A DNA stretch of 64,000 bases from Candidatus Dormibacteria bacterium (GCA_049518775.1 JBEKRL010000004.1:4968-68967); one strand, 5' to 3'. Shown: positions 28,300-63,080, counted from the stretch's first letter. Notes: generated from the letters alone by a model not told the origin. A program made the numbers and translations.

Positions 28300-29757
28300 C
28301 TATGTCTCCGAGGCGCGGGTGGCGGCTGCTTCCTTCCGCACGCTGCCCACGGAGAGGACGAAGTAGACAAGGCCGCCGACGAGAATGCCGACCACCCAGC
28401 TGAAGTCAGCACCTCCGGTAGCCTTGGAAAGCGGGCCCGTAAAGGAGGGCACGTAGAAGGCGGCATCGATCCACAGCATCGCGGCCACCATTCCCAGCGC
28501 CTGAGCGACAAGCGCCTTCCAGTTCACACCGCCGTTCCGCCAGTACAGTCCGCCAATCCTCGACACCAGCGAGCCGGTGTCGTAGCGGCCACGGCGGAGC
28601 AGGTAGTCGACCATCAAGATCCCGAACCAGGGTCCGAGCCAGACCACGATGTAGTCCAGGAAGCCCGACAGGTCGGTGTAGAACTTGCCCTTGAAGATCA
28701 CCAGGGCGGTGACGGCCCCGGCCACGATGGTGTCGATGACGACCGCTCCCCAGCGCTTGATCGGCAGCCCCAAGGCCTGAAGCGTCACCGACGACGAGTA
28801 CATGTCGATCGAGTTGATGGCGAACAGCTGGGGGAGGACCAGGATGAGGAAGGGCCAGAAGAACCAACTCGCGAACGAGGATGGCACGCCGGTCACAGCG
28901 GTCACGCTCGGGCTCACAATGAAAGCCAGCGCTCCCAGAATCTCCAGCAGGATCGCGGGGATGGCGCCGCCCAGGGTGGCGGCCCAGAACGTCCTGGCCT
29001 TGGGTGTCGAGCGGGGCAGGTAGCGCGAGTAGTCGGCGGCATTCTCGGTCCAGCCCAGGCCACCAGCCGAGACGATCAGCACTACGGCAGTGGTCCACAG
29101 CGCCCACGAGCCTGACTGATGGAAGTGGGAAAGGTTGACATGGGGGATGACCAGCACCGCCATGATCACGAAGAGCACGATGAAGACGTAGGACAGGTAG
29201 CGCAGGAGCCTGGTGATCATCGCGTGGCCGAGGAACGGCACTATGAACTGAATCAGGACGGCCGCGACTATCAGGATGGCCTTGAGCCCGGTCCCGACCC
29301 CGATGCCGCCCTTGACGAACATCGCCACGGCCACCAGCACGACAAGCACGATGCCCTCGATCTCAAAGCCCACCTGGGTGAGCCAGTTGAAGAACGAGAC
29401 CACTCGGTTGCCGTTGATCCCGAAGGGGGCTCTGGAGACCATGAAGGCCGTGGTGCCGGTCTCTGGCCCGGGCAGGCTGGCCCAGCCCAGGAATGAGTAG
29501 AAGAGGTTGCCAACCAGGATGGCGAGCACCGCCTGGCCGAATGAGAGTCCGAATGAAATCGCCAGAGCTCCGTAGACCAGGAACTCAACGTTCCAAATCG
29601 CCCCGGCCCAGAGCCAGAACAGCCCTGAGGGCTTCATCTTCCTGTCCGCGTCGGGGATCAGATCGATGCCGCGCTGCTCGACCTTGAGCGCCGAGTACTC
29701 CTCCGTCGCCGGGACGGGCGCGCCCTGCCCTACATTGGTCGGATAGTTCCTTGCCAA
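28300..29757 (-). CDS. NCS1 family nucleobase:cation symporter (cytosine/purine/uracil/allantoin permease-like)
   Basis: 12-TM NCS1 profile (ALKVEQRGIDLIPDADRK...LFWLWAGA..); TTG 29757 preceded by AGGGGGGA RBS; upstream part of ORF (to 30168) is Pro/Arg-rich and non-coding. Confidence 0.8.
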   Translation of the reverse strand: MARNYPTNVGQGAPVPATEEYSALKVEQRGIDLIPDADRKMKPSGLFWLWAGAIWNVEFLVYGALAISFGLSFGQAVLAILVGNLFYSFLGWASLPGPETGTTAFMVSRAPFGINGNRVVSFFNWLTQVGFEIEGIVLVVLVAVAMFVKGGIGVGTGLKAILIVAAVLIQFIVPFLGHAMITRLLRYLSYVFIVLFVIMAVLVIPHVNLSHFHQSGSWALWTTAVVLIVSAGGLGWTENAADYSRYLPRSTPKARTFWAATLGGAIPAILLEILGALAFIVSPSVTAVTGVPSSFASWFFWPFLILVLPQLFAINSIDMYSSSVTLQALGLPIKRWGAVVIDTIVAGAVTALVIFKGKFYTDLSGFLDYIVVWLGPWFGILMVDYLLRRGRYDTGSLVSRIGGLYWRNGGVNWKALVAQALGMVAAMLWIDAAFYVPSFTGPLSKATGGADFSWVVGILVGGLVYFVLSVGSVRKEAAATRASET

Positions 29758-30779
29758 GGCATCCCCCCTGTGATCTGGGCCGTTGGACTCGCCGGAAGTT
29801 CCCGCCACTATAAGGCTAGCCGGCGGTTCCCGGCTGGGGTCGGTTGGACCCCAGCCGGGGCGGGGTTGGGAGCTGCCCCCGGTCAGCGGCGGGGTAGCCG
29901 CGAACAGGCGTCTGCGGCGGTAGCAGCAGCGGGTGAAGCTGGCCGCCTGGACCCGGGTCAATGGCGTCCGCCCTAAGACCGCCGTTCGTGGGGGGAAGGC
30001 ACGCTCCCGGCGCCGGCACGCACGGTCGGTCCGCGGCCCATCCTGGTGGAGACCGGGCCGCCCGGAGTCCCCGGGGCCGTCGCGATCTGCGCCCGCGCCT
30101 CCTCCCCCGACCGACCGGCAGATATCGAGTGCCAGGTGGGTCGGCTGGCGGAATCGGCGGCCTCGCACTCGTTACCGGTGAGCCGGACCTTCGCCGAGGT
30201 GGGCTCGGGGTTGAACGGATCTCGCCCCAGGCTGCGGCGGCTGCTGCCGGATCGGACGGTCAGGACGATCGTAACCGAGCATCTCACCAGCCTTCGCGCC
30301 CGGCTCTACGGGAGGTGCTCAGCCTGCACCAGAGCGGCTCGAGCCCTGGGGGCCGACGCGCCGGCCGGCCGGTGGAGGTCGCCTGAATGGCGAGAGCCCG
30401 CCGCGCGTGCGATATACGCCGACGGGGCGGATGACGGACCGGGAGCTCTCCCGGCAGCTCGCGGTGAAGCACGAACCGGGGTCACCCCAAGGCTCGCGCC
30501 CGGGGCCGGGGTCCTCGATCACGGCAGAGCTCCTGTCCCGATGGGCCCGGTGATCAGGAATGGTGGCCGCTCCCCCACCGTCGCCGGGCCGCGTCGGCGT
30601 CCCCGGGCCAGAGCGATCGAGGGCCGATCGCGTCTCCAGGATCAAGAGCCCGAGCTGCGCCTGGTGAGAGCCGACCCGGTTCCCGAGGAGCCTGAAGCAC
30701 CTGGCCTCCACCCCAAGTGGCATCGTCGGTCTTCCGCGTTCCGGCCTCACGCATCACTGCGTCGATGGTGGCCGGCCCT

Positions 30780-32186
30780 TCAACTCGGGTACTGGCAGAA
30801 GCCCCGCACGATGAACCGCCCGTCGCCGCGCCGGCCGACGTATTGGCCCCGGTCCAGCACCACCGAACCCCGCAGAAGCACCGTTTCCACCCGCCCCGAG
30901 ATCTCCATGCCCTCGTAGCAGGAGTAGTCCACTGCCATGTGATGGGTGCTGGCGGAGATCGTGCTCCGCGCAGAGGGGTCGTAGATCACCACGTCGGCGT
31001 CGGCCCCTGGCCGCAGGCTGCCCTTACGGGGATACATGCCGAACATCTTGGCCGGCGAGGTCGAGGTCACGTCGACCCAGCGGGTGAGGCTGAGCATGCC
31101 TCGCACCACCCCTTGGTGGATCAGGTTCATGCGGTGCTCCACCCCGGGCAGCCCGTTGGGAATCTTGGAGAAGTCACCGCGGCCCAGGTCCTTCTGCCCC
31201 TGGAAGCGGAAGGGACAGTGGTCGGTGGCGACCACCGACAGGTCGCCGCCGTGGAGGCCGCGCCAGAGGGCCAGCTGATCGTGGCTCGACCTCAGCGGCG
31301 GGGAGCAGACGAATTTGGCACCTTCGAATCCGTCCCTGGCCAGATCGTCCTCGGAGAGGAAGAGGTATTGGGGGCAGGTCTCCGCGAAGACCGGCTGGCC
31401 CCGGTCGCGGGCCCCCACCACCTCCGCCAGCGCCGCCGCCGCCGAGACGTGCACGATGTACAGGGAGGCTCCGGCCACCCTGGCCAGCTGGATCGCCCGA
31501 TGGGTGGCCTCCCCCTCCAGGACCGCCGGCCTGGTCGAGGAGTGGAAACGGGGAGCCACCTCACCGCGGGCCAGGGCCTGGGCCACCAGCAGCTCGGTCG
31601 CGATCCCGTTCTCGGCGTGAATCTGGATCAGGGCCCGGTTGTGGGCGCCGTGCTGGAGCGCAGCCAGGATCTGGCCATCCGTGGAATAGGAGACACCGGG
31701 ATAGGCCATGTAGAGCTTGAAGCTGGTCACTCCCTCATCGACCAGCTGGTCCATCTCGCGCAGGGAGGACTCGTTGACATCGGCGAAGCCCATGTGAAAG
31801 CCGTAGTCGGCAGCGCAGTTGCCCTCCGCCTTGAGCCGCCAGCTCTCCAGCGCGTCATGCAGCGACCCACCCCGGATCTGGCTGGCGAAGTCCACGATGG
31901 TCGTGGTACCCCCCCAGATGGCCGCCCTGGTGCCGGTCTCAAAGGAGTCGGAGGCGACCGTGCCCGCGACCGGCAGCTCCATGTGGGTGTGGGCGTCCAC
32001 CCCGCCCGGCAGCACGTACCTGCCCGCCGCCTCCAGGACTCGGTCCGCCGACTCTGCGAAGGCCTGGCTCAGCTCCGACCGGGCGGCGGCCAGGCCGACG
32101 ACCCGCTGGTCTTCGATCAGCACGTCCGCCGGCTCGGCCGAGTCCGCAGTCAGGACGGTGCCACCCCGGATGATCAGGCGCGCCAC
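30780..32186 (-). CDS. dihydropyrimidinase / D-hydantoinase (cyclic amidohydrolase; HyuA/YgeZ-like position)
   Basis: GGVDAHTHMELP, FKLYMAY (carboxylated Lys), HAENG, DHCPF, KIPNGLPGVEHRM; GTG start with GGGAGATGAG RBS. Confidence 0.85.
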   Translation of the reverse strand: MARLIIRGGTVLTADSAEPADVLIEDQRVVGLAAARSELSQAFAESADRVLEAAGRYVLPGGVDAHTHMELPVAGTVASDSFETGTRAAIWGGTTTIVDFASQIRGGSLHDALESWRLKAEGNCAADYGFHMGFADVNESSLREMDQLVDEGVTSFKLYMAYPGVSYSTDGQILAALQHGAHNRALIQIHAENGIATELLVAQALARGEVAPRFHSSTRPAVLEGEATHRAIQLARVAGASLYIVHVSAAAALAEVVGARDRGQPVFAETCPQYLFLSEDDLARDGFEGAKFVCSPPLRSSHDQLALWRGLHGGDLSVVATDHCPFRFQGQKDLGRGDFSKIPNGLPGVEHRMNLIHQGVVRGMLSLTRWVDVTSTSPAKMFGMYPRKGSLRPGADADVVIYDPSARSTISASTHHMAVDYSCYEGMEISGRVETVLLRGSVVLDRGQYVGRRGDGRFIVRGFCQYPS

Positions 32187-32373
32187 CTCAGCTCATCTCC
32201 CGGCTCGCTCGGCCAGCGCCGGGGCAGCCCCTGAGACCTGGCTGCGGTTCGACCGGCTCGGCATCAGGGCCGCCGGTGGCGCTTGTCGAATCGGCGCCCT
32301 CCCGGCCCGCGGCCGGTGAGGCTCCGGAAAATGCCACCCGTCGCGCTGGCGCCGCCCCGAGGTGCCGCGGCCA

Positions 32374-33333
32374 TCAGTCCCTGGTGATTCGCGTGCCGGT
32401 CTCGCCCCGCAGCGCTCGCTCGATGTTGGCAGGGTTGGTCACGATCGCCTCCTTGCCACCGGCGTCGAGATAGTTGAGCACGGCCTGGATCTTCGGAGCC
32501 ATGCTGCCGGCGGCGAAGTGGGTCCCCTGTTGCAGGTACTCGCGGGCCTGCGCCGCCGTCAGATGATCGACGTCGTGCTGCTCCGGGGTACCGAAGTACA
32601 GCGCCACCTTCTCCACCGCGGTGGAGATCAGCAGCAGGTCCGCCCCCAGTTTTGCCGCCAGCAGGGCGGAGGCGAGGTCCTTGTCAATGACCGCCGCGAC
32701 CCCTCGCAGCTGCCCTTCGTCGTCGGCGACCACGGGGATCCCCCCGCCGCCCACGGTGATGACGATCGTGCCACTCTCGACCAGCCGCCGGATCGCGGGC
32801 AGCTCCACGATGCGCTTCGGGAGTGGGGACGCGACCACACGGCGCCAGCCCCGGTTGGCATCCTCGATCAGGGCCCAACCGTCCGCCCGCCGGCGCTCGG
32901 CCATCGCCTCGTCCATGAAGGAGCCTATGGGCTTGCTGGGGTGGGAGAAGGCCGGGTCGTCAGCCGCCACCACGGTCTGGCAGATGACAGTGACCGCCTC
33001 GCGGTCGATCCCCAGATCCAGAAACTCGTTGTGGAGGTTCTGCTGAAGTTCGTAGCCGATGGCGCCTTGGGAGTCGGCCCCGCACACGTCGAGCGGCACC
33101 TCATGGAGCTCGTGCGCAGCGAGCTCGGAGCGCCGGAGGATGAAGCCCACCTGGGGGCCGTTGCCATGACTCACGACCACCGTCCAGCCCGCCTTCACCA
33201 TCGCCGCGATGTGGTGGCTGGTCTCCTTGGCGGCGAGGTTCTGGTCCTCAACCGATTGGTGTGCCTTGTCGATGATCAGCGAGTTGCCCCCGATCGCCAC
33301 CACCGCGGTTCGCTCGGCCCTGGCCGCGCTCAT
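32374..33333 (-). CDS. arcC: carbamate kinase
   Basis: VVAIGGNSL, GNGPQVG, GGGGIPV, AAGSMAPKI motifs; ATG overlaps upstream stop (ATGA). Confidence 0.85.
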   Translation of the reverse strand: MSAARAERTAVVAIGGNSLIIDKAHQSVEDQNLAAKETSHHIAAMVKAGWTVVVSHGNGPQVGFILRRSELAAHELHEVPLDVCGADSQGAIGYELQQNLHNEFLDLGIDREAVTVICQTVVAADDPAFSHPSKPIGSFMDEAMAERRRADGWALIEDANRGWRRVVASPLPKRIVELPAIRRLVESGTIVITVGGGGIPVVADDEGQLRGVAAVIDKDLASALLAAKLGADLLLISTAVEKVALYFGTPEQHDVDHLTAAQAREYLQQGTHFAAGSMAPKIQAVLNYLDAGGKEAIVTNPANIERALRGETGTRITRD

Positions 33334-34307
33334 CGCATCGTCAGGGCCATCACGGCCTTCTGCCCGTGGAGGCGGTTCTCGGCCTGGTCATAGACCGCGG
33401 AGTGGGGCCCGTCGATGACCCCGTCGGTCACCTCGACGTTGCGTGCCGCCGGCAGGGGGTGCATGAAGATGGCATCCTCGCTCGCGGTGGCCATGTGGGC
33501 TTCGTCGGTCATCCAGGACCGGTACTTGTTGATGAGGCGGGTCTCCTCGGCCTCGTCCGAGGTGGTGACCATCGCTCCCCAGCTCTTGGCATACACCACG
33601 TCGGTACCCCGGAAGCCGGCCTCGAAGTCGTCCATCAGCTCGAAGCCGACATGGGCCCGCCGCGCGTTCTCCTTCATCTGCTCGACTATCTCGGGCATCA
33701 GAGCGAACTCCGGCGGGTGGACCAGGCGCACGTTCATGCCGAAACGCGGCAGCAGCAGCGCCAGGCTCTGCGGCGCACTCACCGGCTTCAGGTAGGTCGG
33801 ATCGTGCGCCCAGCTCACCGTGGCGGTCCGGCCCCGGAGGTCCTTGAAGCGCTCGAGGATCGTCATCAGGTCCGCCAGGGCCTGGTGGGGGTGGTAGACC
33901 TCGCACTGCATATTGAGCACCGGGACGCGGCTCGCCTCGGCGACGTCCCGGATGTAGCGGTTGCCCACGCCCCAGTCCACGTTGCGGATCGCGATCCCGT
34001 CGTTGTAGCGGCCGAGGATCTCCCCGATCTCCTTCGCCGTGTCGCCATGCGCGATCTGAGTGGTCCGGGATTCGATGAACTGCGCATGTCCTCCGAGCTG
34101 CGCCATTCCGGCCTCGAAGGACGCCCGGGTCCGGGTCGAGGAGAAGAAGAAGAGCATGGCCAGCACCTTGTCGCGCAGGAGCGGATGGGGGATCCCCAGC
34201 GCGCGCTCCCGCTTCAGAATGAAAGCCACGTCGAGCAGGGTCTCGATCTCGCCCAGGGTCCACTCCTGCAGGTCGATCATGTCGCGCCCGCGCAGGTCTG
34301 TCTGCAT
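33330..34307 (-). CDS. carbamoyltransferase, OTC/ATC superfamily (YgeW-like paralog 1)
   Basis: STRTR carbamoyl-phosphate motif, HPHQ and HPLPA motifs, N-terminal DLRGRDMIDLQEWTLGEI. Confidence 0.75.
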   Translation of the reverse strand: MQTDLRGRDMIDLQEWTLGEIETLLDVAFILKRERALGIPHPLLRDKVLAMLFFFSSTRTRASFEAGMAQLGGHAQFIESRTTQIAHGDTAKEIGEILGRYNDGIAIRNVDWGVGNRYIRDVAEASRVPVLNMQCEVYHPHQALADLMTILERFKDLRGRTATVSWAHDPTYLKPVSAPQSLALLLPRFGMNVRLVHPPEFALMPEIVEQMKENARRAHVGFELMDDFEAGFRGTDVVYAKSWGAMVTTSDEAEETRLINKYRSWMTDEAHMATASEDAIFMHPLPAARNVEVTDGVIDGPHSAVYDQAENRLHGQKAVMALTMR

Positions 34308-34312
34308 GGCCG

Positions 34313-35266
34313 TCAGTCCACCGCGCCGAGGACGAGTGCGAGCAGAGCCATGCGCATCACCACCCCGTTGAAGGCCTCGACCCAGTAGCGGGCGTGGCGA
34401 GTGGCGTCGACCTCGACCGGCAGCTCGTCCATCCGGGGCAGCGAGTGCACCACGATCGCCCCACCCTTGCCCTTGGTCCGCAGCAGCTCCCGGGTGACCC
34501 GGTAGGCGGCGGGAGTGCGACCCTTGTCCTCGGTCGCCTCGACGCGCGACTGGGTGTAGTCGGGCTGCACCACGGGCTCCATGTAGATGACATCGGCGCC
34601 CTCGATGCAGGCCTCGACGCTCTCCATCTCCTGGTAGCGGACGCTGCGCTCATCGAGCTCGGCCTTGAACTCCGGGAGCAGCGACATGTCCGGCGGGGAG
34701 ACCACGAACGCCTCCATGTCGAACTGGGACATCGCGTAGAGGATGGAGTGCATCGTGCGCATCCGCATGTCGCCGACCAGCAGAACCTTCAAGCCATCGA
34801 GGGTGCCCTTGTCCTGCCAGATGGTGTACAGGTCGGTGAGCACCTGGGTGGGGTGCTCGCCCCATCCGTCCCCGCAGTTGATGACCGGTACCGAGGCCCA
34901 TTTTGCCGCCTCGTGCGGCGCACCCTGCTGGAAGTGGCGCATGGCGATGACATCGCCGTAGTACTCGAGCATGTGCACCGTGTCCTTGATCGACTCCTGA
35001 TAGAAGTCGCCCGCCCTGGTCATCTTGGCATCGGAGAAGCCGAGGACGTGGCCGCCGAGACGGTGCATTGCTGCCTCGGTGGCCAGCCGGGTGCGGGTGC
35101 TCGGTTGGTAGAAGGCGGTGAGCAGAGTCTTGTGCTGGAGCAGGTCACCGTTGCGCCGCTCGGCTGCATACGGCTTGAGTTCGTCGGCCACCCGGAAGGT
35201 CTGGAAGTACTCCTCTCGCTCCATGTCCTTCAGGGACAGAATGTCGCGGCCGAGAAAGCTCCTCAT
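34313..35266 (-). CDS. carbamoyltransferase, OTC/ATC superfamily (paralog 2)
   Basis: STRTR, HPTQ, HSLPR motifs; ATG 35266 with GGAAGGGAGAA RBS (ORF open to 35416). Confidence 0.75.
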   Translation of the reverse strand: MRSFLGRDILSLKDMEREEYFQTFRVADELKPYAAERRNGDLLQHKTLLTAFYQPSTRTRLATEAAMHRLGGHVLGFSDAKMTRAGDFYQESIKDTVHMLEYYGDVIAMRHFQQGAPHEAAKWASVPVINCGDGWGEHPTQVLTDLYTIWQDKGTLDGLKVLLVGDMRMRTMHSILYAMSQFDMEAFVVSPPDMSLLPEFKAELDERSVRYQEMESVEACIEGADVIYMEPVVQPDYTQSRVEATEDKGRTPAAYRVTRELLRTKGKGGAIVVHSLPRMDELPVEVDATRHARYWVEAFNGVVMRMALLALVLGAVD

Positions 35267-35434: not shown

Positions 35435-36931
35435 TCAGGCGGTCGCCGGGGCGCCGACCTGGGCGTTGAACTCGGCGATGAGCTCATCCCAGGCTCCTAC
35501 CTGTTCCATGAGCCCATCCCAGAATGCCTGGCGCCGACGCACCTCGAAGGCCTCGAGCGACACTCCCTGCTGTTCCACCCAGGTGAAGTAGCCAAGGTTG
35601 AAGATCCGGGTCCGGTCCTGGTGCCGAAGCTCCAGCAGCTCGGAGTGCTCGGCATCCTGCAGATCTCGCGCCAGGGCGGCCAGGGCAGCTGGTTCGTCCA
35701 GGCCCTCAGGGAAGTCACGCCGGACCCGGGCCTGACGCTGGTCGGCGTACATCGCCGCCCCGTCGGTGGCCAGGGTCAGGACCAGGTCCTCTGGACCCAG
35801 CTCAAAGTGGCGGGCCACCGCCACGGCAGCCACCACGTTGGCCAGCGCCGACAGGCCGAAGTGGGCCATCCCCGCCAGCAGCGATTGCTCCAGACCGGGG
35901 GCCTGCTGCAGAGCCGCCAGCCCTTCCTTGGTGTGGAAGATGGCATCCAGCCGGTCGGTGTTGCGGTCCGACACCGCCACCACCACGTCGGTGTTCATGA
36001 CGTTGTGGATGAGGGGAATGTGCTTGTCACCGATGCCCTGGATGTTGTGGTCCCCGAAACCGTTGCGCAACATGGTGGCGCACTCCACCGGTTCCGCGGC
36101 CACGGTTCGCGTCCCCAATCGCTGCTTCAGGTGGTCGCCAGCGCCGAGGGAGCCCGATGAGCCGGTGGTGGCGACGAAGGCGAAGGGCTGCAGCTGGGGT
36201 CGCTGGACCCGCAGGTGCTCCACCAGCCGCTCCAGGGCCCGCCCGGTGCAGAGGCGGTGGACCACATAGTTGGGGTACTCGGCGAACTGGTTGAGGATCA
36301 CGTTGCGCTCGTCCTCGGCCAGTTCCTGGCAACGCTCGTAAATCTCCCGCACGTTGCTCTCACCACCGGGCGTGGTGATGACGTCGCTGGGTTCCGCGAC
36401 CCAGCGACGCAGCCACTCGAAGCGCTCGGTGCTCATGTCCTCGGGGAGTACCGCGACGCCCCGGCATCCCAGCATCCGGGAGATCGCCACCCCGCCGCGG
36501 CAGAAGTTCCCGGTCGACGGCCAGACCGCGCGCTGCGAGGTGGGGTCGAAGCCACCGCTGACCAGACGCGGTGCCAGGCAGGCGTACGCAGCCAGCACCT
36601 TGTGGGCCCCGATCATGGGGAAGCGGTCCGCCAGGGCGACCACGATGGTCGCGGGGACGCCGGTCAGTTCCGGCGGGAGCACAAGGTGGCTGGGCACGGG
36701 GACCAGGCTCCGCCGGTCGGCTCCGTTGTACCAGTGAACCCGGTAGAGGTTGCGGGGGTCGGGGGCGTCGGGGTCGATGCCGATCAGCTGGGAGAGGAGC
36801 TGAACGTCAAGGCTGCTGGGGTCAGCGAGCTCTGCGAAGGTCGGTAGGACGATGGCGAGTTCACGGCAGCGCGCGACCGCCTGCCGGTATGCGGTCGGAT
36901 CGGTGATGCCCCCTGCTGTCTCCACCATCAC
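35435..36931 (-). CDS. PLP-dependent enzyme, tryptophan-synthase-beta (fold type II) superfamily, unusually long (498 aa)
   Basis: fold-II-like Gly-rich loop (ATTGSSGSLGAG) and length/architecture; exact subfamily not recognisable by eye; AGAGGTGA RBS. Confidence 0.55.
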   Translation of the reverse strand: MMVETAGGITDPTAYRQAVARCRELAIVLPTFAELADPSSLDVQLLSQLIGIDPDAPDPRNLYRVHWYNGADRRSLVPVPSHLVLPPELTGVPATIVVALADRFPMIGAHKVLAAYACLAPRLVSGGFDPTSQRAVWPSTGNFCRGGVAISRMLGCRGVAVLPEDMSTERFEWLRRWVAEPSDVITTPGGESNVREIYERCQELAEDERNVILNQFAEYPNYVVHRLCTGRALERLVEHLRVQRPQLQPFAFVATTGSSGSLGAGDHLKQRLGTRTVAAEPVECATMLRNGFGDHNIQGIGDKHIPLIHNVMNTDVVVAVSDRNTDRLDAIFHTKEGLAALQQAPGLEQSLLAGMAHFGLSALANVVAAVAVARHFELGPEDLVLTLATDGAAMYADQRQARVRRDFPEGLDEPAALAALARDLQDAEHSELLELRHQDRTRIFNLGYFTWVEQQGVSLEAFEVRRRQAFWDGLMEQVGAWDELIAEFNAQVGAPATA

Positions 36932-37259: not shown

Positions 37260-38294
37260 TCAAACCAATTCCAGGATTGGCTCTCCCGGTTGGCTGTCCC
37301 GCACCTCTCCGATCAGCACCGCGGAGGGCAGCAACTCGACGAGGTGGGCAGCGCGGTCGGCCCCGAGCGTGATCACCAGTCCTCCGCTGGTCTGAGCGTC
37401 GCAGGCCAGGATGAGCAGGGCATCGGGGACGTCAGCCGCGATTCGAGTAACGGTTCGGGCCAGCTCCAGATTGCGCCTGGTTCCTCCCGGGATGCGTCCC
37501 TGCGCGACCAGGTCGAGGGCACCCGGCAGCAGGGGAAGGTCTGCGGCTCTAACTGTGACTTGAACTGACGAAGCCCGGGCGAGGTTGTGGAGGTGGCCCA
37601 GGAGCCCGAAGCCGGTCACATCGGTGGCGGCGTTGGCGCCGGCCTCGACCATGGCCTGGGCCGCCGCCCGGTTGAGCTGGCGCATGGTGGCGACCGCACC
37701 TGCCAGGACCGTCGCTGCCACCTGCTGAGCCTTGTGAGCGTTGAGGATCACCCCCGTTCCCAACGGTTTGGTGAGGAAGACCAGGTCTCCGGCGCGAGCG
37801 GTGGCGTTGGTGATCATCCGGCGGGGATCGACCGAGCCCAGCACCGCGCATCCGAAGATCGGCTCGGGACTGCGGATGGAGTGGCCACCGGCGATCGCGC
37901 AGCCGGCTTCGGCCGCCACCTCCGCGCCCCCCTCGAGGATCTGCCGGAGGATCTGCCCGTCGAGGTTGGCCAGGTCGAAGCCCACCAGGTTCAGGAGCAG
38001 GAGGGGAGTGCCACCCATCGCGTAGATGTCGGAGAGGGCGTTGGCGGTGGCGATGCGACCGTAGTCGCGGGGATCGTCGACTGGGGGCGGGAAGAAGTCG
38101 GTGGTGGCGACCACGGCCAGGCTGTCGCCAACCCGGTATACGGCTGCATCGTCCATGGTCTCGGCCGAGACCAGCAGGTCGCCGCTCGCCGGGGAGGCGA
38201 TCCCGGCCAGGATGGAGGCCAGGTCGGCCTGGGCGATCTTGGCGGAACACCCGCCCTGCCCGGTGAGCTCTGTCAGTCGCACGGATCCCGCCAC
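37260..38294 (-). CDS. selD: selenide, water dikinase (selenophosphate synthetase), Cys-type
   Basis: N-terminal RLTELTGQGGCSAKI (Cys at the Sec/Cys position), PurM-like fold motifs; GTG 38294 with GAAGGAG RBS (ORF open to 38477 would overlap upstream gene by 130 bp). Confidence 0.85.
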   Translation of the reverse strand: MAGSVRLTELTGQGGCSAKIAQADLASILAGIASPASGDLLVSAETMDDAAVYRVGDSLAVVATTDFFPPPVDDPRDYGRIATANALSDIYAMGGTPLLLLNLVGFDLANLDGQILRQILEGGAEVAAEAGCAIAGGHSIRSPEPIFGCAVLGSVDPRRMITNATARAGDLVFLTKPLGTGVILNAHKAQQVAATVLAGAVATMRQLNRAAAQAMVEAGANAATDVTGFGLLGHLHNLARASSVQVTVRAADLPLLPGALDLVAQGRIPGGTRRNLELARTVTRIAADVPDALLILACDAQTSGGLVITLGADRAAHLVELLPSAVLIGEVRDSQPGEPILELV

Positions 38295-38347
38295 GCCATC
38301 TCCTTCACCCTCGCACAGGACGGCACCCGCAGCCGTGGCCCAACCGG

Positions 38348-39730
38348 CTACAGCACCGGCCAGCGTGGGCCGGGGTCGATTCCGGTGGACCGGTAGAGCC
38401 GCCCAGCTCGCTCCCGGGCCTGAGCCACCGCTCTCTCCTCGTCGATGGTGAGCAACCGCCCATCCCGGACCAGCCACCTGCCATCGACCATCACCGAGTC
38501 CACGTCAGCCCCGGTGGAGGCGTAGACCAGCGAGGAGACCGGGTTGAGGCCGGGCGCCATGTGGGCGCGCTCACGGTCGACGACCACCAGGTCAGCCTTC
38601 TTGCCCACCTCGAGCGAACCGATCTCGTGCTCCCAGCGCAGCGCCTTGGCTCCATTGATCGTGGCCATCTCCAGCACCGTCTCCGCGGGCACGACGGTGG
38701 GGTCCCGTGAGACCGCCTTGTGAACCAGGGCCGCCAGCTTCATCTCCGCGAGGAGGTCGTAGGTGTTGTTGCTGGGACCTCCGTCGCAGCCGAGGGCCAC
38801 GTTCACCCCGGCTGCCAGCAGCTTGGGGACCGGGCAGACCCCCGAGCCCAGCTTGGAGTTGGAGGAGGGGTTGTGGGACACGCTGGTGCCGGTCTCGGCC
38901 AGGATGCGAATGTCCTGGTCATCGATCCACACCATGTGCACCAGGACCACGTCAGGACCCACCAGGCCCACGCTGCGGGCGAACTCCACGGGAGACATCT
39001 GGTACGTCTGGCGCAGGAACTGGCGGTCCGCCTCGATCTCGGCCAGGTGCATGGTGATCTCCATGCCCCGGCTCCGGGCCTCGGACACCATCTCCCGGTA
39101 GAGCTCGGGAGACACCCCCCCCGGGGTCCGGGGGCCGAAACCGACGTGGATCCGGCCGTCGGCCGCCCCGTCCCAGCGGTCGAACATGTCGAGCGTGGTC
39201 AGCAGGCTCTCCTCGCGGGTCTCGCGCAGCCCCATCGGCATGGCGTTGTCCTGGGTTGCGTAGGTGGCGATGTCCATCACCTTCTTGGTCAGGCAGGCGC
39301 GGATGCCGGTGTCGACGACCACTTGGGCCACTCCGTCGAAGCCGTACCGATGCGCCAGGCCCGACTCCAGAAACGTGGTGGTGCCGGACCTCAACATCTC
39401 GGCGATGCAGAGGCGGGCGCTGACCACGCCATCCTCGTGGTCATAACTGCCCTGCAGCACCCACACCCGCTCGCAGAGCCATTGGACCAGCGCCATGTCG
39501 TCAGCGCAATCGCGGATCATCGCCTGCGCTTCGTGGACGTGGGTGTCGACCAGCCCGGGGATGATCAGCTTGCCGGCGAGGTCGATCTGCTCCTCGTCAG
39601 GATAGGCGCGCAGAACCTCGTCGGCCGGGCCCACCGCCGCGATGCGGTCCGCCCGCGCCACCAGCGCGCCGCGGCGAAAGATCCTGCGCCCGGGATCCAC
39701 CGTGATGATCGTCGCCCCGTTCAAGAGCAT
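38348..39730 (-). CDS. amidohydrolase, SsnA/chlorohydrolase/nucleobase deaminase-like
   Basis: metal-dependent hydrolase motifs (GLVDTHVHEAQ, ..MHLAE.., ..HNPSSN.., GCDGGPSNN); ATG 39730. Confidence 0.75.
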   Translation of the reverse strand: MLLNGATIITVDPGRRIFRRGALVARADRIAAVGPADEVLRAYPDEEQIDLAGKLIIPGLVDTHVHEAQAMIRDCADDMALVQWLCERVWVLQGSYDHEDGVVSARLCIAEMLRSGTTTFLESGLAHRYGFDGVAQVVVDTGIRACLTKKVMDIATYATQDNAMPMGLRETREESLLTTLDMFDRWDGAADGRIHVGFGPRTPGGVSPELYREMVSEARSRGMEITMHLAEIEADRQFLRQTYQMSPVEFARSVGLVGPDVVLVHMVWIDDQDIRILAETGTSVSHNPSSNSKLGSGVCPVPKLLAAGVNVALGCDGGPSNNTYDLLAEMKLAALVHKAVSRDPTVVPAETVLEMATINGAKALRWEHEIGSLEVGKKADLVVVDRERAHMAPGLNPVSSLVYASTGADVDSVMVDGRWLVRDGRLLTIDEERAVAQARERAGRLYRSTGIDPGPRWPVL

Positions 39731-39794
39731 GCCCGACCTCCTGGCCGATTCGACCCGGGCGCGCGGATGGGCCCGGGGACGCCCCTGCCGCTGG

Positions 39795-41165
39795 TCAATC
39801 CATGACCGCCCGGTGCCACAGGGCACCGGCGCGCTCCCGGCTGCGGGCGGCGATCTCCTCCTCGTCGAGGCCGACCAGCTCCCGCCGTCGCATCAGCCAC
39901 CGCCCCGCCACCATCGTGTCGGAGACCTGGCAGCCATCCGCTCCGGCGACGATATGTCCGCCCACGTTGCTGGCGGTGAGCGGCGTGGGCGCCCGGTAAT
40001 CCAGGAGCACCAGGTCCGCTGGTCCTCCCACCCGCAGCTGCCCCAGCGGCCCCAGTTGGGGGACGAAGGGAGCGAAGAGCGAGTCGCAGATCCGCCCGCC
40101 GCCGGAGAAGGCGAGCGCCACCACCTCATCCGGCGGCAGCAGCCGGGGATCCCGGCCGGTCAGCCGGGCCTGTGACTGAGCGGCGCGCATCTCCTCGAAC
40201 ATGTTCATGCTGACGCCGTCGGTGCCCAGCCCGATCGTCACCCCGGCCTGGCGGAGCGCGGTGATGGGGGCGCTGCCCACCGCGTTGCCCATGTTGGAGC
40301 GGGGGTTGTGCGCGACCGCCACCCCGGCCTGGGCCAGCTCGGCGATCTCGCGGCCGTCGACGTGGACGCAGTGGGCGGCGAGCGACCCGGGGCCCAGCAC
40401 GCCGTGGGCTACCAGGTGCGGTACGACGCGACTGGCGAAGCGACGCTGACAGTCCTCCTGATCGACCGGGCCCTCGGCGACATGCACGTGGCAGCCCACC
40501 CCCTGCGCCGCGCCCAGGTCAGCGCAGGCGGACAGGGTCGCGGGGCTCAGGGTGAATGAGGCATGCAGCCCCACGGCCGCGGCCAGGCGGCCCCCCGGAG
40601 CGGCGGTTGGGGAGCGCAGGGAACTAATGAAACGCGCGTTCTCACGGATCCCCGCCTCGGTGTCGGCCGTGCCGTTGCGCTCCGACACCTCGTAGGCGAG
40701 GCACGCGCGCAGCCCCGAGGCCTCCACCGCGGTGGCGATCACGTCCAGGCTGCCGTCCACGCAGGATGGGCTGGCATGGTGGTCGACCAGGGTGGTGACG
40801 CCGTGCCGAATCGCGTCGACCAGACTCACCTCGGCGCTGGAGGCGATGTCCGCCGGGGTGAGGAGGCGGTCCAAGCGCCACCACAGCCCTTCCAGGATCT
40901 CCTGGAAATCCCGCGGCGGGTCCCCGGGAAGGGCCATGCCGCGGGCGAACGCGGAGTACAGATGGGTGTGCGTGCAGAGCATCCCCGGCAGGCACAGGCC
41001 GCCCTCCGCATCCACCAGCTCGGCCTCCGGATGTTCGGCCGTCAGTGAGCTCGAACCGATGGCCCCGATCCGGCCATCCGCCACCAGGATCGCCCCGGTC
41101 TCCACCAGGGGGGCGCGCTCGTCCATGGTCACCACGGTGGCATTGGCGATGCAGATCGGCTTCAC
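39795..41165 (-). CDS. amidohydrolase, SsnA/TRZ-ATZ-like (second paralog)
   Basis: GMLCTHTHLYS, VHVAE, HNPRSN, GTDGVSMN motifs; GTG 41165 inferred (ORF open to 41447 is Pro/Gly-rich). Confidence 0.75.
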   Translation of the reverse strand: MKPICIANATVVTMDERAPLVETGAILVADGRIGAIGSSSLTAEHPEAELVDAEGGLCLPGMLCTHTHLYSAFARGMALPGDPPRDFQEILEGLWWRLDRLLTPADIASSAEVSLVDAIRHGVTTLVDHHASPSCVDGSLDVIATAVEASGLRACLAYEVSERNGTADTEAGIRENARFISSLRSPTAAPGGRLAAAVGLHASFTLSPATLSACADLGAAQGVGCHVHVAEGPVDQEDCQRRFASRVVPHLVAHGVLGPGSLAAHCVHVDGREIAELAQAGVAVAHNPRSNMGNAVGSAPITALRQAGVTIGLGTDGVSMNMFEEMRAAQSQARLTGRDPRLLPPDEVVALAFSGGGRICDSLFAPFVPQLGPLGQLRVGGPADLVLLDYRAPTPLTASNVGGHIVAGADGCQVSDTMVAGRWLMRRRELVGLDEEEIAARSRERAGALWHRAVMD

Positions 41166-41391
41166 CGCGGCCCCCTGGGGATCGTGACCGGAGATCGCAG
41201 GGGTGGCGGAGGAGCGGGCCAGCGGGTGTCGACCTGGTCGCAGGAAGATGCGGCAGACCGCGCCGGCCGCCCCTCCCCCTCCCGGCTGGAAGCGGTTGGC
41301 GCTGCCCTTGTCCAGGCTGCAGCGGGCGGCGCCCCGCGATGGAGCCGGACGGGCTCCACCGCCTCCTGGCGGCGTATGTCGCGGTCCGAAC

Positions 41392-42444
41392 TCATGGCGC
41401 CGGGTTCGCCTGACCGCCGGCCCCGGAACCGGGGGTGACACCCTCAAGGCCGCCGGCGAAGAGGTCGATCATGGCCCGAACGTCCGGACCCAGCGGGTAC
41501 AGCACCGGGCAGGTGCAGCCGCTGGCGACGTACTCGGCAACCTTGGCCCGGCACTCGTCGGGCGTCCCGGAGGCGCTGAGCATCTGCACCACGTCATCGG
41601 GCACCAGGTGGGCGGCCTCCACCACCTCCGCATGGGTGGCCGGCCAGTGCAGCACCGCGGCGATGCGGTCGAGCAGGTCCTGGGGTACGCCCGACGCCTT
41701 CATGAGATGGGGCTGCTGGCCCAGGTACTGGGTGATCAGCAGGCGCGCCGCATCCAGCGCCACCCGGCGGTCCCGGTCCAAGGAGCAGATGACCAGCTGG
41801 GGACGGTCGACGTCCACGACCCCGCGGCCGGCCCGCGCCGCCCCTTGTTGCAACTGCTCCAGCGCCTGGCGGGTGTAGCCGGGTGACACCAGATAGTTGA
41901 GCAGGACCCCATCAGCTATCTCCCCCGCCAGCTCCATCATCCGCGGCCCGGTGGCGCCGATGTAGATCGGTACCGCCTTGGGTCGCCGCTCCTGATGCAC
42001 GTAGTCCAGCTCCACCGCGTCGAGGTGGACGAACTCTCCCTGGAAGGTCACCGACCCGCCCGCCAGCAGAGCTCGGACCGTGGTCACCGTCTCTCTCATG
42101 GCGACCACCGGCCGGGAGCGCTGGATGCCGACGCGGCTGGCCAGGGGGTCCCACCAGTCACCGATCCCGAGCATGACCCGACCCGGCGCCAGGTCGTCCA
42201 GGGTGGAGAAGGTGGAAGCCAGCAGCGCGGTGTTGCGCGTCCACCGGTTGACCACGCCGCTGCCCACCAGGATCCGCTCGGTCGCGGTGAGGAACGCGGC
42301 CATGGGTACCGTCGCCTCCCGGGCCAGCCGGCTCTCGGCCTGCCATACCGCGGAGAAGCCATTGGCTTCGGCGTACTGGGCCAGGGTGATCCCCTGGCGC
42401 ACGGAGTGGGCGTCCTGAAGGTAGAGGGCGACGGGGACGGTCAC
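41392..42444 (-). CDS. LLM class (luciferase-like) flavin/F420-dependent oxidoreductase
   Basis: typical LLM N-terminus [20 protein letters not shown] and TIM-barrel length. Confidence 0.7.
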
Positions 42445-49619: not shown

Positions 49620-49699
49620 CGGCGCCTCCTTGCAGTCGGACGGTCACTTCTGGCCAGAATCGACCAGTGCCACTCCGGCGGCACAGGCGTTCGTCGTGG

Positions 49700-49731
49700 G
49701 TGACCCCTCGGTTGAAGCCGATCAGTATAAT
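49700..49731 (+). promoter_or_regulatory. candidate promoter for plus-strand xdh operon (perfect TATAAT at 49726)
   Basis: TATAAT hexamer in 72% GC DNA, -35-like GTGACC ~19-20 nt upstream; 150 nt upstream of TTG 49883. Confidence 0.3.
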
Positions 49732-49882
49732 TCTGGGATGTCTGCCAGAGGATCGCGGGCTGCCTCCGGGAATTGGTGGGGCGCCCTCGGGTCGGCCAGC
49801 ATCACGCGGGGCTGGTGGCCCTGGCGGGTGGCGTCGGCAGGGCCGCCTTGGCGTCGGTCGCGACTCACAAGGTGGCCATGAC

Positions 49883-62524: not shown

Positions 62525-63080
62525 GCTCAACTGTGACCCGGTGCCGGACTCACCGACACGGGTGCTTTCCTCCGGCCGGGGCGCGTGACTACCGCCAGCG
62601 CTGCGAACGCTACCACACCTCCCGCCGGCGTCCGGCCATCAGCATCGAGCGGCCACGGCCATCGGAGCCTCCCTCCCGGACGTGGAGGTCACGACCCCGC
62701 CGGCCGGCCTTCTCCCGTGCGTCCCGAGGCCCGTGAGTGAAAGCTCGGCCCCCCGGTAGGTGCAAGCGACGTGGCGGGCGAGTGCTCGCAGCACCAACCT
62801 TGGACCATGGCGACGGGTCTCAGGCATCAACACGGGATGCGGCCTCCGGCTGCGGAAGCTGGTATCAGCGCCGGGGCGCAGGACGGCTCGCCCCGGCGAG
62901 GTAAGCGTGGTGGCCAGGCGCCGCAGGGACCGGAGGCCTGTCTCTGGCCGGGGAGGTGGGCCGTCCGATGACTGGCTGGAGAAACCAGGGTCACCCGGGA
63001 GGGTGCATACCGCTGGTGGAGCTGGGCCGGCCCGCCCCGGGAGGTTCCCGTGATTGCGGGGAATCTCGGGAGGCATCGCT

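What the first reader, a model, noticed from the sequence alone, without database searches (positions are those of the whole stretch)
30780..35266. Carbamate-generating module with duplicated YgeW-like carbamoyltransferases
Dihydropyrimidinase/hydantoinase, carbamate kinase and two tandem OTC/ATC-superfamily carbamoyltransferases (STRTR motif retained in both) sit in one block with DAP ammonia-lyase upstream. The substrate of YgeW-type 'knotted' carbamoyltransferases is still unresolved in E. coli, and a tandem pair of them is unusual. The arrangement implies substrate-level ATP formation from a carbamoylated intermediate derived from a hydantoin/ureido compound.
Basis: partly seen in the sequence, partly recalled or inferred. 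Interest (0 to 1): 0.6.

Follow-up and report, generated by a model that had tools for sequence, protein, structure and literature searches.

The report
Two-carbamoyltransferase urate breakdown module
This gene block is the energy-yielding end of the recently solved oxygen-free uric acid breakdown pathway, in a soil-bacterium version where the usual hydrolase (YgeY) is replaced by a second, aspartate-carbamoyltransferase-like enzyme that probably lets the cell make two ATP instead of one per uric acid.

Summary
The four genes are real and lie at the stated coordinates on the minus strand: D-hydantoinase HyuA, carbamate kinase, and two tandem carbamoyltransferases.

The two transferases are not a duplicated YgeW. 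They are 28.6% identical to each other.
- CTB (33330-34307) is a compact 325-aa member of the knotted AOTCase/YgeW branch. It keeps YgeW's proposed second-substrate residues but scores below every NCBIfam cut-off.
- CTA (34313-35266) is a "pseudo-ATCase". It keeps the carbamoyl-phosphate site but has lost the aspartate ligands R229/Q231 and K84.

YgeW's substrate was resolved in 2025: it is 2,3-diureidopropionate in the reductive (2,8-dioxopurine) urate pathway. The window holds that pathway in its F420 variant, with XdhD/YgfM, an F420 reductase, SsnA, HyuA, YgeX, SelD and YqeB. It has no YgeY.

Across 70 non-redundant related loci, the gene next to CTB is either CTA (46) or a true YgeY (17). 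Both occur in only 2. One collinear pair of clusters shows a clean swap.

Best reading: CTA replaces YgeY, so both ureido groups are cleaved by phosphorolysis, giving two carbamoyl phosphates and two ATP. This is a new variant of a known pathway. It is not rare: relatives of CTB were found in at least 597 species genomes. The biochemistry is untested.

The parts
30780..32186 (-). HyuA, a D-hydantoinase/dihydropyrimidinase. Inferred to open the ureidomethyl-hydantoin ring to give 2,3-diureidopropionate.
   Evidence: TIGR02033 scores 554 bits against a cut-off of 393. [quoted passage not shown]
32374..33333 (-). Carbamate kinase, the YqeA/ArcC type: carbamoyl phosphate + ADP gives ATP.
   Evidence: NF009007 scores 385 against 266. 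Its start overlaps the CTB stop in ATGA. It lies directly downstream of CTB in most related loci.
33330..34307 (-). CTB, a compact (325 aa) carbamoyltransferase of the knotted AOTCase/YgeW group. Proposed functional counterpart of YgeW, i.e. 2,3-diureidopropionate phosphorolysis.
   Evidence: It falls below all NCBIfam cut-offs: OTC 255 against 306, AOTC 234 against 288, YgeW 171 against 453. The CTB+AOTC+YgeW clade has 192/200 bootstrap support. It shares YgeW motifs: NxQC(D/E)xxHPxQ, SWAxxxxYxKPxSxPQ and KSW. The YTCase substrate residues Q98, Q160, S200, K203 and K270 correspond to Q84, Q134, T171, K174 and K241. The OTC DxxxSMG motif is lost.
34313..35266 (-). CTA, a pseudo-ATCase. Proposed phosphorolytic replacement for the YgeY ureido-hydrolase.
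   Evidence: The closest solved structure is P. abyssi ATCase 1ml4. It groups with ATCases in 200/200 bootstraps but outside the true ATCases. The carbamoyl-phosphate site and R167 are kept. S80 becomes R84, K84 becomes Y89, R229 becomes P231, Q231 becomes T238 and HPLP becomes HSLP; these are fixed in 50-52 of 52 family members. CTA alternates with YgeY next to CTB.
35435..36931 (-). PLP498, an uncharacterised CysK/CBS-fold PLP enzyme that travels with the module. Possible beta-elimination on DAP or albizziin.
   Evidence: Pfam PALP; only weak CysK hits. AF2 pLDDT is 86.9, and the best Foldseek hits are cysteine synthases/CBS. It is present in 35/52 CTA-type and 14/18 YgeY-type loci.
37260..38477 (-). 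SelD, selenide water dikinase (the true start is probably internal to this ORF).
   Evidence: TIGR00476 scores 358 against 125.
38348..39826 (-). A TRZ/ATZ-family aminohydrolase, like guanine or 8-oxoguanine deaminases. Probably funnels purines into the pathway.
   Evidence: Best NCBIfam hits are 415 and 375 bits, all below their cut-offs. Related loci carry true 8-oxoguanine deaminases at this kind of position.
39795..41447 (-). SsnA, which opens the ring of dihydro-2,8-dioxopurine. It is the marker gene of the reductive urate pathway.
   Evidence: NF005540 scores 459 against 444. The role comes from PMC12507026.
41392..42444 (-). An LLM-class F420-dependent oxidoreductase. Candidate 2,8-dioxopurine reductase, replacing YgfK/UacX.
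   Evidence: Pfam Bac_luciferase scores 213 bits and the F420 LLM families match. Li et al. report exactly this substitution in Chloroflexota clusters. There is no YgfK in the window.
42634..43779 (-). YgeX, 2,3-diaminopropionate ammonia-lyase.
   Evidence: NF006058 scores 356 against 276.
43997..46966 (-). An XdhD-like fused 2Fe-2S and molybdopterin hydroxylase. Candidate urate to 2,8-dioxopurine reductase.
   Evidence: Pfam Fer2, Fer2_2, Ald_Xan_dh_C and MoCoBD_1/2. XdhA model 731 bits and Se_sel_red_Mo 725 bits, both below their cut-offs.
46963..47901 (-). A YgfM-like FAD-binding subunit.
   Evidence: Pfam FAD_binding_5 and CO_deh_flav_C.
47901..49619 (-). Adenine deaminase.
   Evidence: TIGR01178 scores 557 against 472.5.
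49667..50806 (+). YqeB, the selenium-dependent molybdenum cofactor maturation protein.
   Evidence: TIGR03309 scores 349 against 220.
50788..55877 (+). A second xanthine-dehydrogenase set: FAD subunit, Mo subunit and an XdhC-family chaperone.
   Evidence: Pfam and NCBIfam hits.
28300..30168 (-). An NCS1-family nucleobase permease (the true start is probably internal to this ORF).
   Evidence: Pfam Transp_cyt_pur scores 157 bits. Homologues sit in several related loci.

Best explanation
The block is the ureido-cleaving, ATP-yielding end of a reductive (2,8-dioxopurine) uric-acid catabolic cluster. It comes from a Candidatus Dormibacteria genome and is the F420/selenium variant of the pathway.

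Proposed steps:
1. HyuA opens the ureidomethyl-hydantoin made by SsnA, giving 2,3-diureidopropionate.
2. CTB, a short knotted YgeW-type transcarbamylase, cleaves one ureido group with phosphate.
3. CTA, an ATCase-derived 'pseudo-ATCase', cleaves the remaining ureido group with phosphate. In E. coli this step is done hydrolytically by YgeY.
4. The co-translated carbamate kinase converts both carbamoyl phosphates to ATP. That is two ATP per urate rather than one.
5. The resulting 2,3-diaminopropionate goes to pyruvate through YgeX, possibly with help from PLP498.

What is shown here: gene identities, motif states, conservation of the CTA-CTB-kinase cassette, and the CTA/YgeY alternation.

What is inferred: substrates, the order of the two steps, the regiochemistry and the ATP yield. 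By family precedent CTB would take the side-chain 3-ureido group, as OTC/AOTC enzymes do. CTA would take the alpha 2-ureido group, as ATCase does. This assignment is weak.
For: Pathway membership:
- SsnA, HyuA, YgeX, carbamate kinase and YqeB pass their curated cut-offs, and SelD does too. An XdhD-like gene, a YgfM-like gene and an F420 LLM gene are present.
- The E. coli pathway and YgeW's substrate have been demonstrated. ATP formation by YgeW plus YqeA has been shown.
- The F420 LLM substitution has been reported for Chloroflexota.

CTB as the YgeW counterpart:
- It lies in the knotted clade in 192/200 bootstraps.
- It keeps the YTCase substrate residues listed in PMC4581275.
- In 18 of the non-duplicate loci it sits with a YgeY homologue; most of these also carry the kinase (15) and SsnA (12). 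No canonical YgeW is present in any of them.

CTA as the YgeY replacement:
- No YgeY homologue is found in the 64-kb window, even at E<1.
- Among 70 non-duplicate loci: CTA only 46, YgeY only 17, both 2, neither 5 (Fisher p = 5e-10).
- L067 and L085 are collinear, with flanking genes 76-86% identical. They differ in having CTA or a YgeY at the same position; the L085 YgeY scores 498 on TIGR03526 against a cut-off of 321.5.
- L093 has CTA and the kinase without CTB, next to a UacY-like hydrolase. This fits a two-slot scheme: slot one is YgeW, CTB or UacY; slot two is YgeY or CTA.
- CTA keeps every carbamoyl-phosphate ligand and the alpha-carboxylate ligand R167. It has lost the aspartate beta-carboxylate ligands.
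- A related pseudo-ATCase has been shown experimentally to phosphorolyse allantoate.
Against: - No enzyme from this family pair has been assayed.
- The absence of YgeY is established only within ±10 kb in relatives and within the 64-kb window here. It is not established genome-wide.
- The Fisher test is not corrected for phylogeny.
- Two loci (L023, L034) carry both CTA and YgeY. Four loci carry a UacY-like hydrolase plus CTA plus CTB, i.e. three candidate enzymes for two ureido groups.
- CTA-type clusters often also differ from YgeY-type clusters in their PLP enzymes: many carry PALP450. The downstream chemistry may therefore differ from E. coli.
- The H(S/T)LP motif is proposed to contact a remaining ureido group in UGTCase. 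That would fit CTA acting first on the di-ureido compound, not second.
- The window's CTB departs from its family at two nearly invariant sites, T171 and A288.
Confidence: 0.6

Rival explanations
1. CTA belongs to a different ureido substrate or pathway and only shares the carbamate kinase. It could be a ureidoglycine/allantoate-type transcarbamylase (UGTCase), or a phosphorolytic carbamoylase for N-carbamoyl amino acids or N-carbamoyl-beta-alanine produced by the dihydropyrimidinase-type HyuA.
For: - HyuA matches the general D-hydantoinase/dihydropyrimidinase equivalog.
- The only characterised pseudo-ATCase acts on allantoate.
- The HSLP motif matches the H(T/S)LP motif assigned to UGTCase.
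- An NCS1 permease of broad nucleobase/hydantoin type lies adjacent.
Against: - No uricase, allantoinase or allantoate-pathway genes are in the window.
- CTA is tied to clusters containing SsnA, Xdh and the F420 LLM.
- It swaps position with YgeY in collinear clusters.
Confidence: 0.17
2. CTA and CTB form one hetero-oligomeric transcarbamylase, or CTA is a non-catalytic partner. Together they act on a single step, and the second ureido group is removed by an unidentified hydrolase.
For: - The genes are translationally coupled, with a 5-nt gap.
- The pair is adjacent in 53 of 87 sources.
- Both are unusually conserved across phyla, 64-94% identity.
- Transcarbamylase active sites are shared between neighbouring subunits.
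Against: - CTB occurs without CTA in at least 18 loci, and CTA occurs without CTB in L093.
- CTA retains a complete carbamoyl-phosphate site.
- All known family members are homotrimers.
Confidence: 0.1
3. The two genes are ordinary housekeeping PyrB and ArgF, or a catabolic ArcB, that happen to sit in a purine cluster.
For: - Public pipelines name them aspartate and ornithine/N-acetylornithine carbamoyltransferase.
- CTA just passes TIGR00670, 247.9 against 236.95.
Against: - CTA lacks R229, Q231, S80 and K84. CTB lacks DxxxSMG and HCLP. All of these changes are fixed across the families.
- CTA fails NF002032, 219 against 263.
- There are no pyrI/pyrC or arg genes nearby.
- The linkage to the kinase, SsnA and Xdh is conserved.
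Confidence: 0.03

Closest known systems
The E. coli / C. sporogenes reductive urate (2,8-dioxopurine) pathway cluster: xdhD-ygfM, ygfK, ssnA, hyuA, ygeW, yqeA, ygeY, ygeX (Li et al. 2025, PMC12507026; Liu et al. 2025, bioRxiv 10.1101/2025.04.24.650524)
   Same: The window holds XdhD/YgfM-like genes, SsnA, HyuA, carbamate kinase, YgeX, SelD and YqeB. A carbamoyltransferase is coupled to the kinase for substrate-level ATP formation.
   Different: - YgfK is replaced by an F420-dependent LLM reductase. This was already noted for Chloroflexota.
- YgeW is replaced by a 325-aa relative that is 34% identical to it.
- YgeY is absent, and a pseudo-ATCase sits in its place.
- An extra CysK-fold PLP enzyme is present.
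YgeW / YTCase (PDB 3Q98, 2YFK; NCBIfam NF005538, TIGR03316)
   Same: This applies to CTB only. It has the proline-rich loop signature of the knotted group, the QIAHG(E/D)T 80s loop, NxQC(D/E)xxHP, SYxKPxSxPQ and KSW. The proposed substrate residues are conserved, and it lies next to a carbamate kinase.
   Different: - 325 aa rather than 396 aa. It has no extra N- or C-terminal helices and no two-helix insertion in the 240s loop.
- HPLP instead of HCLP in the window copy.
- The C-terminus (AENRLHxQKA) resembles OTC/AOTC.
- The HMM score is far below the cut-off.
- The NJ tree places it nearer AOTCase (156/200) than YgeW (44/200).
The pseudo-ATCases of Barba et al. 2013 (PMC4016543), including the ureidoglycine transcarbamylase Rxyl_2847
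   Same: This applies to CTA. It branches beside the archaeal-type ATCases, has H(S/T)LP instead of HPLP, has lost the RxQ aspartate motif, and sits in a purine-catabolic setting with a carbamate kinase. The Nocardioides context they described (pseudo-ATCase, ygeW homologue, xdh, hyuA) is reproduced in L014.
   Different: - Only subgroup 1 (allantoate phosphorolysis) was assayed.
- The subgroup with this context had no assigned function.
- The motif they print for that subgroup in place of RxQ (GX[SC]) is not what my alignment shows (P-V-V…T). This may depend on the alignment.
- The link to YgeY replacement and to 2,3-diureidopropionate is new here.
The arginine deiminase pathway (catabolic OTCase ArcB plus carbamate kinase ArcC)
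   Same: The logic is the same: phosphorolysis of a ureido group, pulled forward by carbamate kinase to make ATP.
   Different: The substrate and the enzymes' specificity loops differ. Here two transcarbamylases feed one kinase.
C. difficile UacY (a D-aminoacylase homologue that replaces YgeW/YqeA)
   Same: It is another example of non-orthologous replacement at a ureido-cleavage step of this pathway. UacY-like genes flank CTA in some Acidimicrobiia loci.
   Different: UacY swaps phosphorolysis for hydrolysis and so loses ATP. The CTA-for-YgeY swap goes the other way and gains ATP.

Membership tests
YgeW / YTCase | Reaches the curated NCBIfam score (NF005538 cut-off 453; TIGR03316 cut-off 500) | tested here: not met
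   CTB scores 171 and 160 bits. CTA scores 34 and 28 bits.
YgeW / YTCase | [quoted passage not shown] | tested here: not met
   CTB is 325 aa. The alignment shows that all YgeW-specific insertions and the C-terminal tail are missing.
YgeW / YTCase | Proline-rich loop and extended 120s loop, the signature of knotted transcarbamylases | tested here: met
   CTB has SWAHDPTYLKPVSAPQ, against YgeW TWAYSPSYGKPLSVPQ, and a 120s-loop insertion relative to OTC. The CTB+AOTC+YgeW clade has 192/200 support. The knot itself was not verified in a 3D model. CTA lacks this loop.
YgeW / YTCase | Proposed second-substrate residues Q98*, Q160, S200, K203 and K270 (Shi et al. 2015) | tested here: met
   CTB has Q84, Q134, T171 (S in 81/83 family members), K174 and K241. 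Four of these are invariant in the family.
YgeW / YTCase | Phosphorolysis of 2,3-diureidopropionate | not testable with these tools
   This needs an enzyme assay.
Aspartate carbamoyltransferase (PyrB) | Curated HMM cut-offs | tested here: inconclusive
   CTA passes TIGR00670 (247.9 against 236.95) but fails NF002032 (219 against 263).
Aspartate carbamoyltransferase (PyrB) | Aspartate ligands R167, R229 and Q231, plus S80 and K84 from the neighbouring chain | tested here: not met
   R167 is kept. R229 becomes P231, Q231 becomes T238, S80 becomes R84 and K84 becomes Y89, in 50-52 of 52 family members.
Ornithine carbamoyltransferase | The DxxxSMG ornithine loop and HCLP | tested here: not met
   CTB has KSWGAMV and HPLP. 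NF001986 scores 255 against 306 and TIGR00658 scores 237 against 281.
N-acetylornithine carbamoyltransferase | Curated cut-off; E144 and an extended 80s loop with Trp77 | tested here: not met
   NF003384 scores 234 against 288. The E144 position is Q134 in CTB, and the 80s loop is short and OTC/YgeW-like, with no extension.
Pseudo-ATCase (Barba 2013) / UGTCase group | ATCase-like, branching beside archaeal-type ATCases; H(S/T)LP in place of HPLP; RxQ lost | tested here: met
   The best PDB hit is P. abyssi ATCase. The tree gives 200/200. HSLP is present and RxQ is lost.
Pseudo-ATCase (Barba 2013) / UGTCase group | Subgroup-2 gene context: next to a ygeW homologue, xdh genes and hyuA | tested here: met
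   The window fits this context. The Nocardioides MAG locus L014 shows CTA-CTB-Xdh-HyuA.
Pseudo-ATCase (Barba 2013) / UGTCase group | Allantoate phosphorolysis (the UGTCase activity) | not testable with these tools
   Only Rxyl_2847 was assayed. The context here argues for a different substrate.
Reductive urate (2,8-dioxopurine) pathway cluster | SsnA, HyuA, YgeX and carbamate kinase, with an Xdh-family reductase and a dearomatising reductase (YgfK, UacX or F420 LLM) | tested here: met
   SsnA 459 against 444; HyuA 554 against 393; YgeX 356 against 276; carbamate kinase 385 against 266. The XdhD-like, YgfM-like and F420 LLM genes are present.
Reductive urate (2,8-dioxopurine) pathway cluster | The YgeY hydrolase for the second ureido group | tested here: not met
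   tblastn with E. coli YgeY finds nothing in the window at E<1. No Peptidase_M20 domain is among the scanned ORFs.

The most novel reading that the evidence does not exclude
An ATCase-derived enzyme family (CTA, which is widespread in soil Actinomycetota, Chloroflexota and Dormibacterota and is annotated everywhere as PyrB) is a new transcarbamylase specificity. It would phosphorolyse the mono-ureido derivative of 2,3-diaminopropionate, most likely the 2-ureido (N-carbamoyl) form.

It would have displaced the hydrolase YgeY, so the reductive urate pathway would conserve both ureido groups as carbamoyl phosphate and double its substrate-level ATP yield.

ATCase-type enzymes act on alpha-amino groups, and OTC/AOTC/YgeW-type enzymes act on side-chain amino groups. 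The swap would therefore also favour the 3-ureido-first order of cleavage, which the two 2025 studies still dispute.
Probability: 0.5. Interest if true: 0.65.

Novelty: new variant of a known kind. Interest (0 to 1): 0.55.

Why it matters
- **Pathway biology.** The anaerobic urate pathway was solved only in 2025 and is being developed for gout probiotics. A natural variant that replaces a hydrolytic step with a second ATP-conserving phosphorolysis would show how the pathway is tuned for energy yield.
- **Orphan annotation.** It would give a function to an orphan "pseudo-ATCase" group flagged in 2013. It would also correct annotations: the close relatives listed here are named PyrB, ArgF or AOTCase.
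- **The regiochemistry dispute.** It offers a comparative-genomic argument on which ureido group YgeW-type enzymes remove first.
- **Detection in surveys.** Identity-threshold screens for the pathway, such as YgeW ≥63% and YgeY ≥53%, would miss this abundant environmental form. The pathway is therefore probably much less gut-restricted than it currently appears.

Tried and rejected
- **Rfam.** A gathering-threshold scan of the whole window found nothing, including no riboswitch upstream of the operon.
- **Promoters and terminators.** The consensus scan was no better than shuffled sequence.
- **Housekeeping PyrB/ArgF.** Rejected on motif loss and gene context.
- **Gene duplication.** Rejected: the two transferases are 28.6% identical and lie on different superfamily branches.
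- **Obligate CTA-CTB heteromer.** Down-weighted, because each gene occurs without the other.
- **Assigning CTA to a Barba subgroup by the printed motif at the RxQ position.** My alignment gives neither GX[SC] nor a clean VXP. I relied on gene context and on HSLP instead.
- **PLP498 as a YgeX orthologue.** Rejected: it has a CysK/CBS fold and only weak HMM hits. Its role remains open.
- **The published Nature Microbiology version of Liu et al.** It could not be fetched, so the bioRxiv version was used.
- **Prior description of the variant.** A literature search for a two-carbamoyltransferase variant found nothing in the held library.
- **The knot in CTB.** I could not verify it in 3D, because model coordinates are not exposed.

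Full report
**Observation.**
The window has about 70% GC. A frame-specific GC3 filter picks out one long minus-strand gene run. Inside the finding's coordinates lie four genes:
- HyuA, 30780-32186: TIGR02033 scores 554 bits against a cut-off of 393.
- Carbamate kinase, 32374-33333: NF009007 scores 385 against 266.
- Two proteins carrying both Pfam transcarbamylase domains, which I call CTB (33330-34307, 325 aa) and CTA (34313-35266, 317 aa).

The ATG at 35266 has a good ribosome-binding site and matches public 317-aa gene calls. CTA and CTB are 5 nt apart, and the CTB stop overlaps the kinase start. STRTR is present in both transferases.

**Surroundings.**
The block is part of a purine-catabolic island of about 30 kb. 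Upstream on the same strand are:
- a CysK-fold PLP enzyme (PLP498);
- SelD;
- a TRZ/ATZ aminohydrolase;
- SsnA (459 against 444);
- an F420-type LLM oxidoreductase;
- a true 2,3-diaminopropionate ammonia-lyase, YgeX (356 against 276);
- a fused XdhD-like molybdenum hydroxylase with a YgfM-like FAD subunit;
- adenine deaminase.

Across a divergent junction lie YqeB (349 against 220), a second Xdh set and an XdhC-family chaperone. Downstream are an NCS1 permease and an acetate kinase. Proteins identical to CTB and PLP498 are named by NCBI as coming from a Candidatus Dormibacteria MAG.

**What is known.**
Two 2025 studies reconstituted a reductive urate pathway:
1. XdhD reduces urate to 2,8-dioxopurine.
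2. YgfK (or UacX) and SsnA convert that to ureidomethyl-hydantoin.
3. HyuA opens it to 2,3-diureidopropionate.
4. YgeW phosphorolyses one ureido group, and YqeA makes ATP from the carbamoyl phosphate.
5. YgeY hydrolyses the other ureido group.
6. YgeX converts 2,3-diaminopropionate to pyruvate.

The two groups disagree on which ureido group YgeW removes. Li et al. also note that Chloroflexota clusters carry an F420 luciferase-family enzyme in place of YgfK. The window shows exactly that substitution, and it has no YgfK or YgeY homologue even at E<1.

**The two transferases are different enzymes.**
They share 28.6% identity.

CTA:
- It is closest to ATCases: P. abyssi 1ml4 at 232 bits, and 38% identity to E. 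coli PyrB.
- It groups with ATCases in 200/200 bootstraps, outside the true ATCases.
- It barely passes one ATCase model and fails another.
- Across 52 family members it keeps the carbamoyl-phosphate ligands and R167.
- It has fixed changes at the aspartate and neighbour-chain ligands: S80→R, K84→Y, R229→P and Q231→T. It also has a 5-residue insertion and HSLP in place of HPLP.
- This matches the "pseudo-ATCase" class of Barba et al. 2013. One member of that class phosphorolyses allantoate. Another, in Nocardioides, was seen next to a "ygeW homologue", xdh genes and hyuA, with no function assigned. Locus L014 reproduces that context.

CTB:
- It falls below every curated cut-off: OTC 255 against 306, AOTC 234 against 288, YgeW 171 against 453.
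- It lacks the OTC DxxxSMG and HCLP motifs.
- It joins AOTCase and YgeW, the knotted group, in 192/200 bootstraps.
- It shares YgeW's proline-rich loop, NxQC(D/E) and KSW motifs.
- It conserves the residues proposed to bind YgeW's second substrate (Q98, Q160, S200, K203, K270), as listed in PMC4581275.
- It lacks YgeW's insertions and terminal helices. It is best described as a compact YgeW-type enzyme, not as a YgeW orthologue by the family's own criteria.

**Comparative genomics.**
CTB relatives at 67-87% identity occur in at least 597 species-level genomes. These span Actinomycetota, Chloroflexota and Dormibacterota, with a few in Verrucomicrobiota, Thermotogae and Fidelibacterota. In the 86 loci I fetched plus the window, several patterns hold:
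- The kinase follows CTB in most loci.
- CTA lies directly upstream of CTB in 53.
- Where CTA is absent, the same position is usually occupied by a YgeY homologue.
- Among 70 non-duplicate loci with enough flank: CTA only 46, YgeY only 17, both 2, neither 5. Fisher p is 5e-10, without phylogenetic correction.

Both cluster types are tied to SsnA.

The clearest case is a pair of collinear clusters. L067 (Anaerolineae) and L085 (Aggregatilineaceae) have flanking HyuA, CTB, kinase, PLP enzyme and SsnA that are 76-86% identical. L067 has CTA at the position where L085 has a YgeY. The L085 YgeY passes TIGR03526, 498 against 321.5.

In L093, CTA and the kinase occur without CTB. They sit beside a D-aminoacylase-type hydrolase of the kind that replaces YgeW in C. 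difficile (PMC12507026). Together these patterns suggest two interchangeable "slots". The first is filled by YgeW, CTB or UacY. The second is filled by YgeY or CTA.

**Mechanism proposed.**
HyuA makes 2,3-diureidopropionate. CTB and CTA each remove one ureido group by phosphorolysis. The kinase turns both carbamoyl phosphates into ATP. YgeX, perhaps with PLP498, finishes the route to pyruvate, and the adjacent acetate kinase may extend energy conservation further.

Family precedent favours CTB on the 3-ureido group and CTA on the 2-ureido group. OTC, AOTC and YgeW-type enzymes act on side-chain amino groups, while ATCase acts on the alpha-amino group with R167 holding the alpha-carboxylate. 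That would agree with Liu et al.'s order of cleavage. This is inference only, and the H(S/T)LP argument of Shi et al. could be read the other way.

Shown here: gene identities, motif states and the replacement pattern. Inferred: substrates, order of steps and ATP stoichiometry.

**Caveats.**
- The absence of YgeY is established only locally, not genome-wide.
- Two loci carry both CTA and YgeY.
- Four loci carry a UacY-like hydrolase, CTA and CTB together.
- Many CTA-type clusters carry two uncharacterised PLP enzymes instead of YgeX, so the end of the pathway may differ from E. coli.
- The window's CTB deviates from its family at T171 and A288.
- No paper in the searchable library describes the two-transferase variant. 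Liu et al.'s MAG screen used identity thresholds that would miss it.

**Verdict.**
The feature is real and not an artefact. It is an already-known kind of system, the reductive urate pathway with a carbamoyl-phosphate/ATP module, in a new variant. The ATP-generation idea is right. The valuable point is the apparent displacement of YgeY by a pseudo-ATCase. Interest is 0.55. Confidence in the replacement model is about 0.6.

Noticed in passing
window 35435-36931 (-): PLP498 is a 497/498-aa CysK/CBS-fold PLP enzyme with extra N- and C-terminal helical parts and an invariant IGAHKVLAAY motif. It matches only weakly to any curated family. It travels with the CTB-kinase module in most loci, whereas a true YgeX is rare there. 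It may act on 2,3-diaminopropionate or albizziin.
   Followed up: partly
L092 3980-5332; L001-L004, L009-L014, L020-L040 and others, directly upstream of CTA: A second uncharacterised PLP enzyme (about 450 aa, weakly threonine-synthase-like) forms the order PLP498-PALP450-CTA-CTB-kinase in about 25 CTA-type loci. It is absent from the window. L067 has a ThrC-family gene that passes its curated cut-off, sitting after the kinase.
   Followed up: partly
L093 8194-11962; also L005, L007, L008, L092: A D-aminoacylase-type amidohydrolase (NF006560, below cut-off), resembling C. difficile UacY, lies divergently next to CTA in Acidimicrobiia loci. In L093, CTA is followed directly by the kinase with no CTB.
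   Followed up: partly
window 37260-38477 (-) and 49667-50806 (+): SelD and YqeB are present together with two Xdh-family hydroxylases. This is the selenium-dependent molybdenum hydroxylase trait. I did not look for YqeC.
   Followed up: no
window 33330-34307 (-), residues T171 and A288: The window's CTB differs from 81 of 83 relatives at two nearly invariant positions: S→T171, and D→A288 (the equivalent of YgeW D334, so HPLPAA instead of HPLPAD). The same protein is seen on 12 contigs, so this is not a sequencing error.
   Followed up: no
window 26445-27710 (-) and 59816-62530 (-): An acetate kinase with a long N-terminal extension in the ORF sits just downstream of the cluster. A GNAT plus ADP-forming acyl-CoA-synthetase-like fusion (Pat-type) lies at the far end. 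Both may be linked to the fate of pyruvate/acetyl-CoA.
   Followed up: no
window 24121-24975 (+): An ArdC-N plus IrrE/M78 peptidase-like gene lies at the low-coordinate edge of the island, close to a local GC dip at 28-30 kb (0.65). This may be a remnant of a mobile element.
   Followed up: no
CTA and CTB families: Both proteins are unusually conserved across phyla (64-94% identity). Public annotation names them aspartate, ornithine or N-acetylornithine carbamoyltransferase. This is systematic misannotation, and it may also reflect horizontal spread of the CTA-CTB-kinase cassette.
   Followed up: partly
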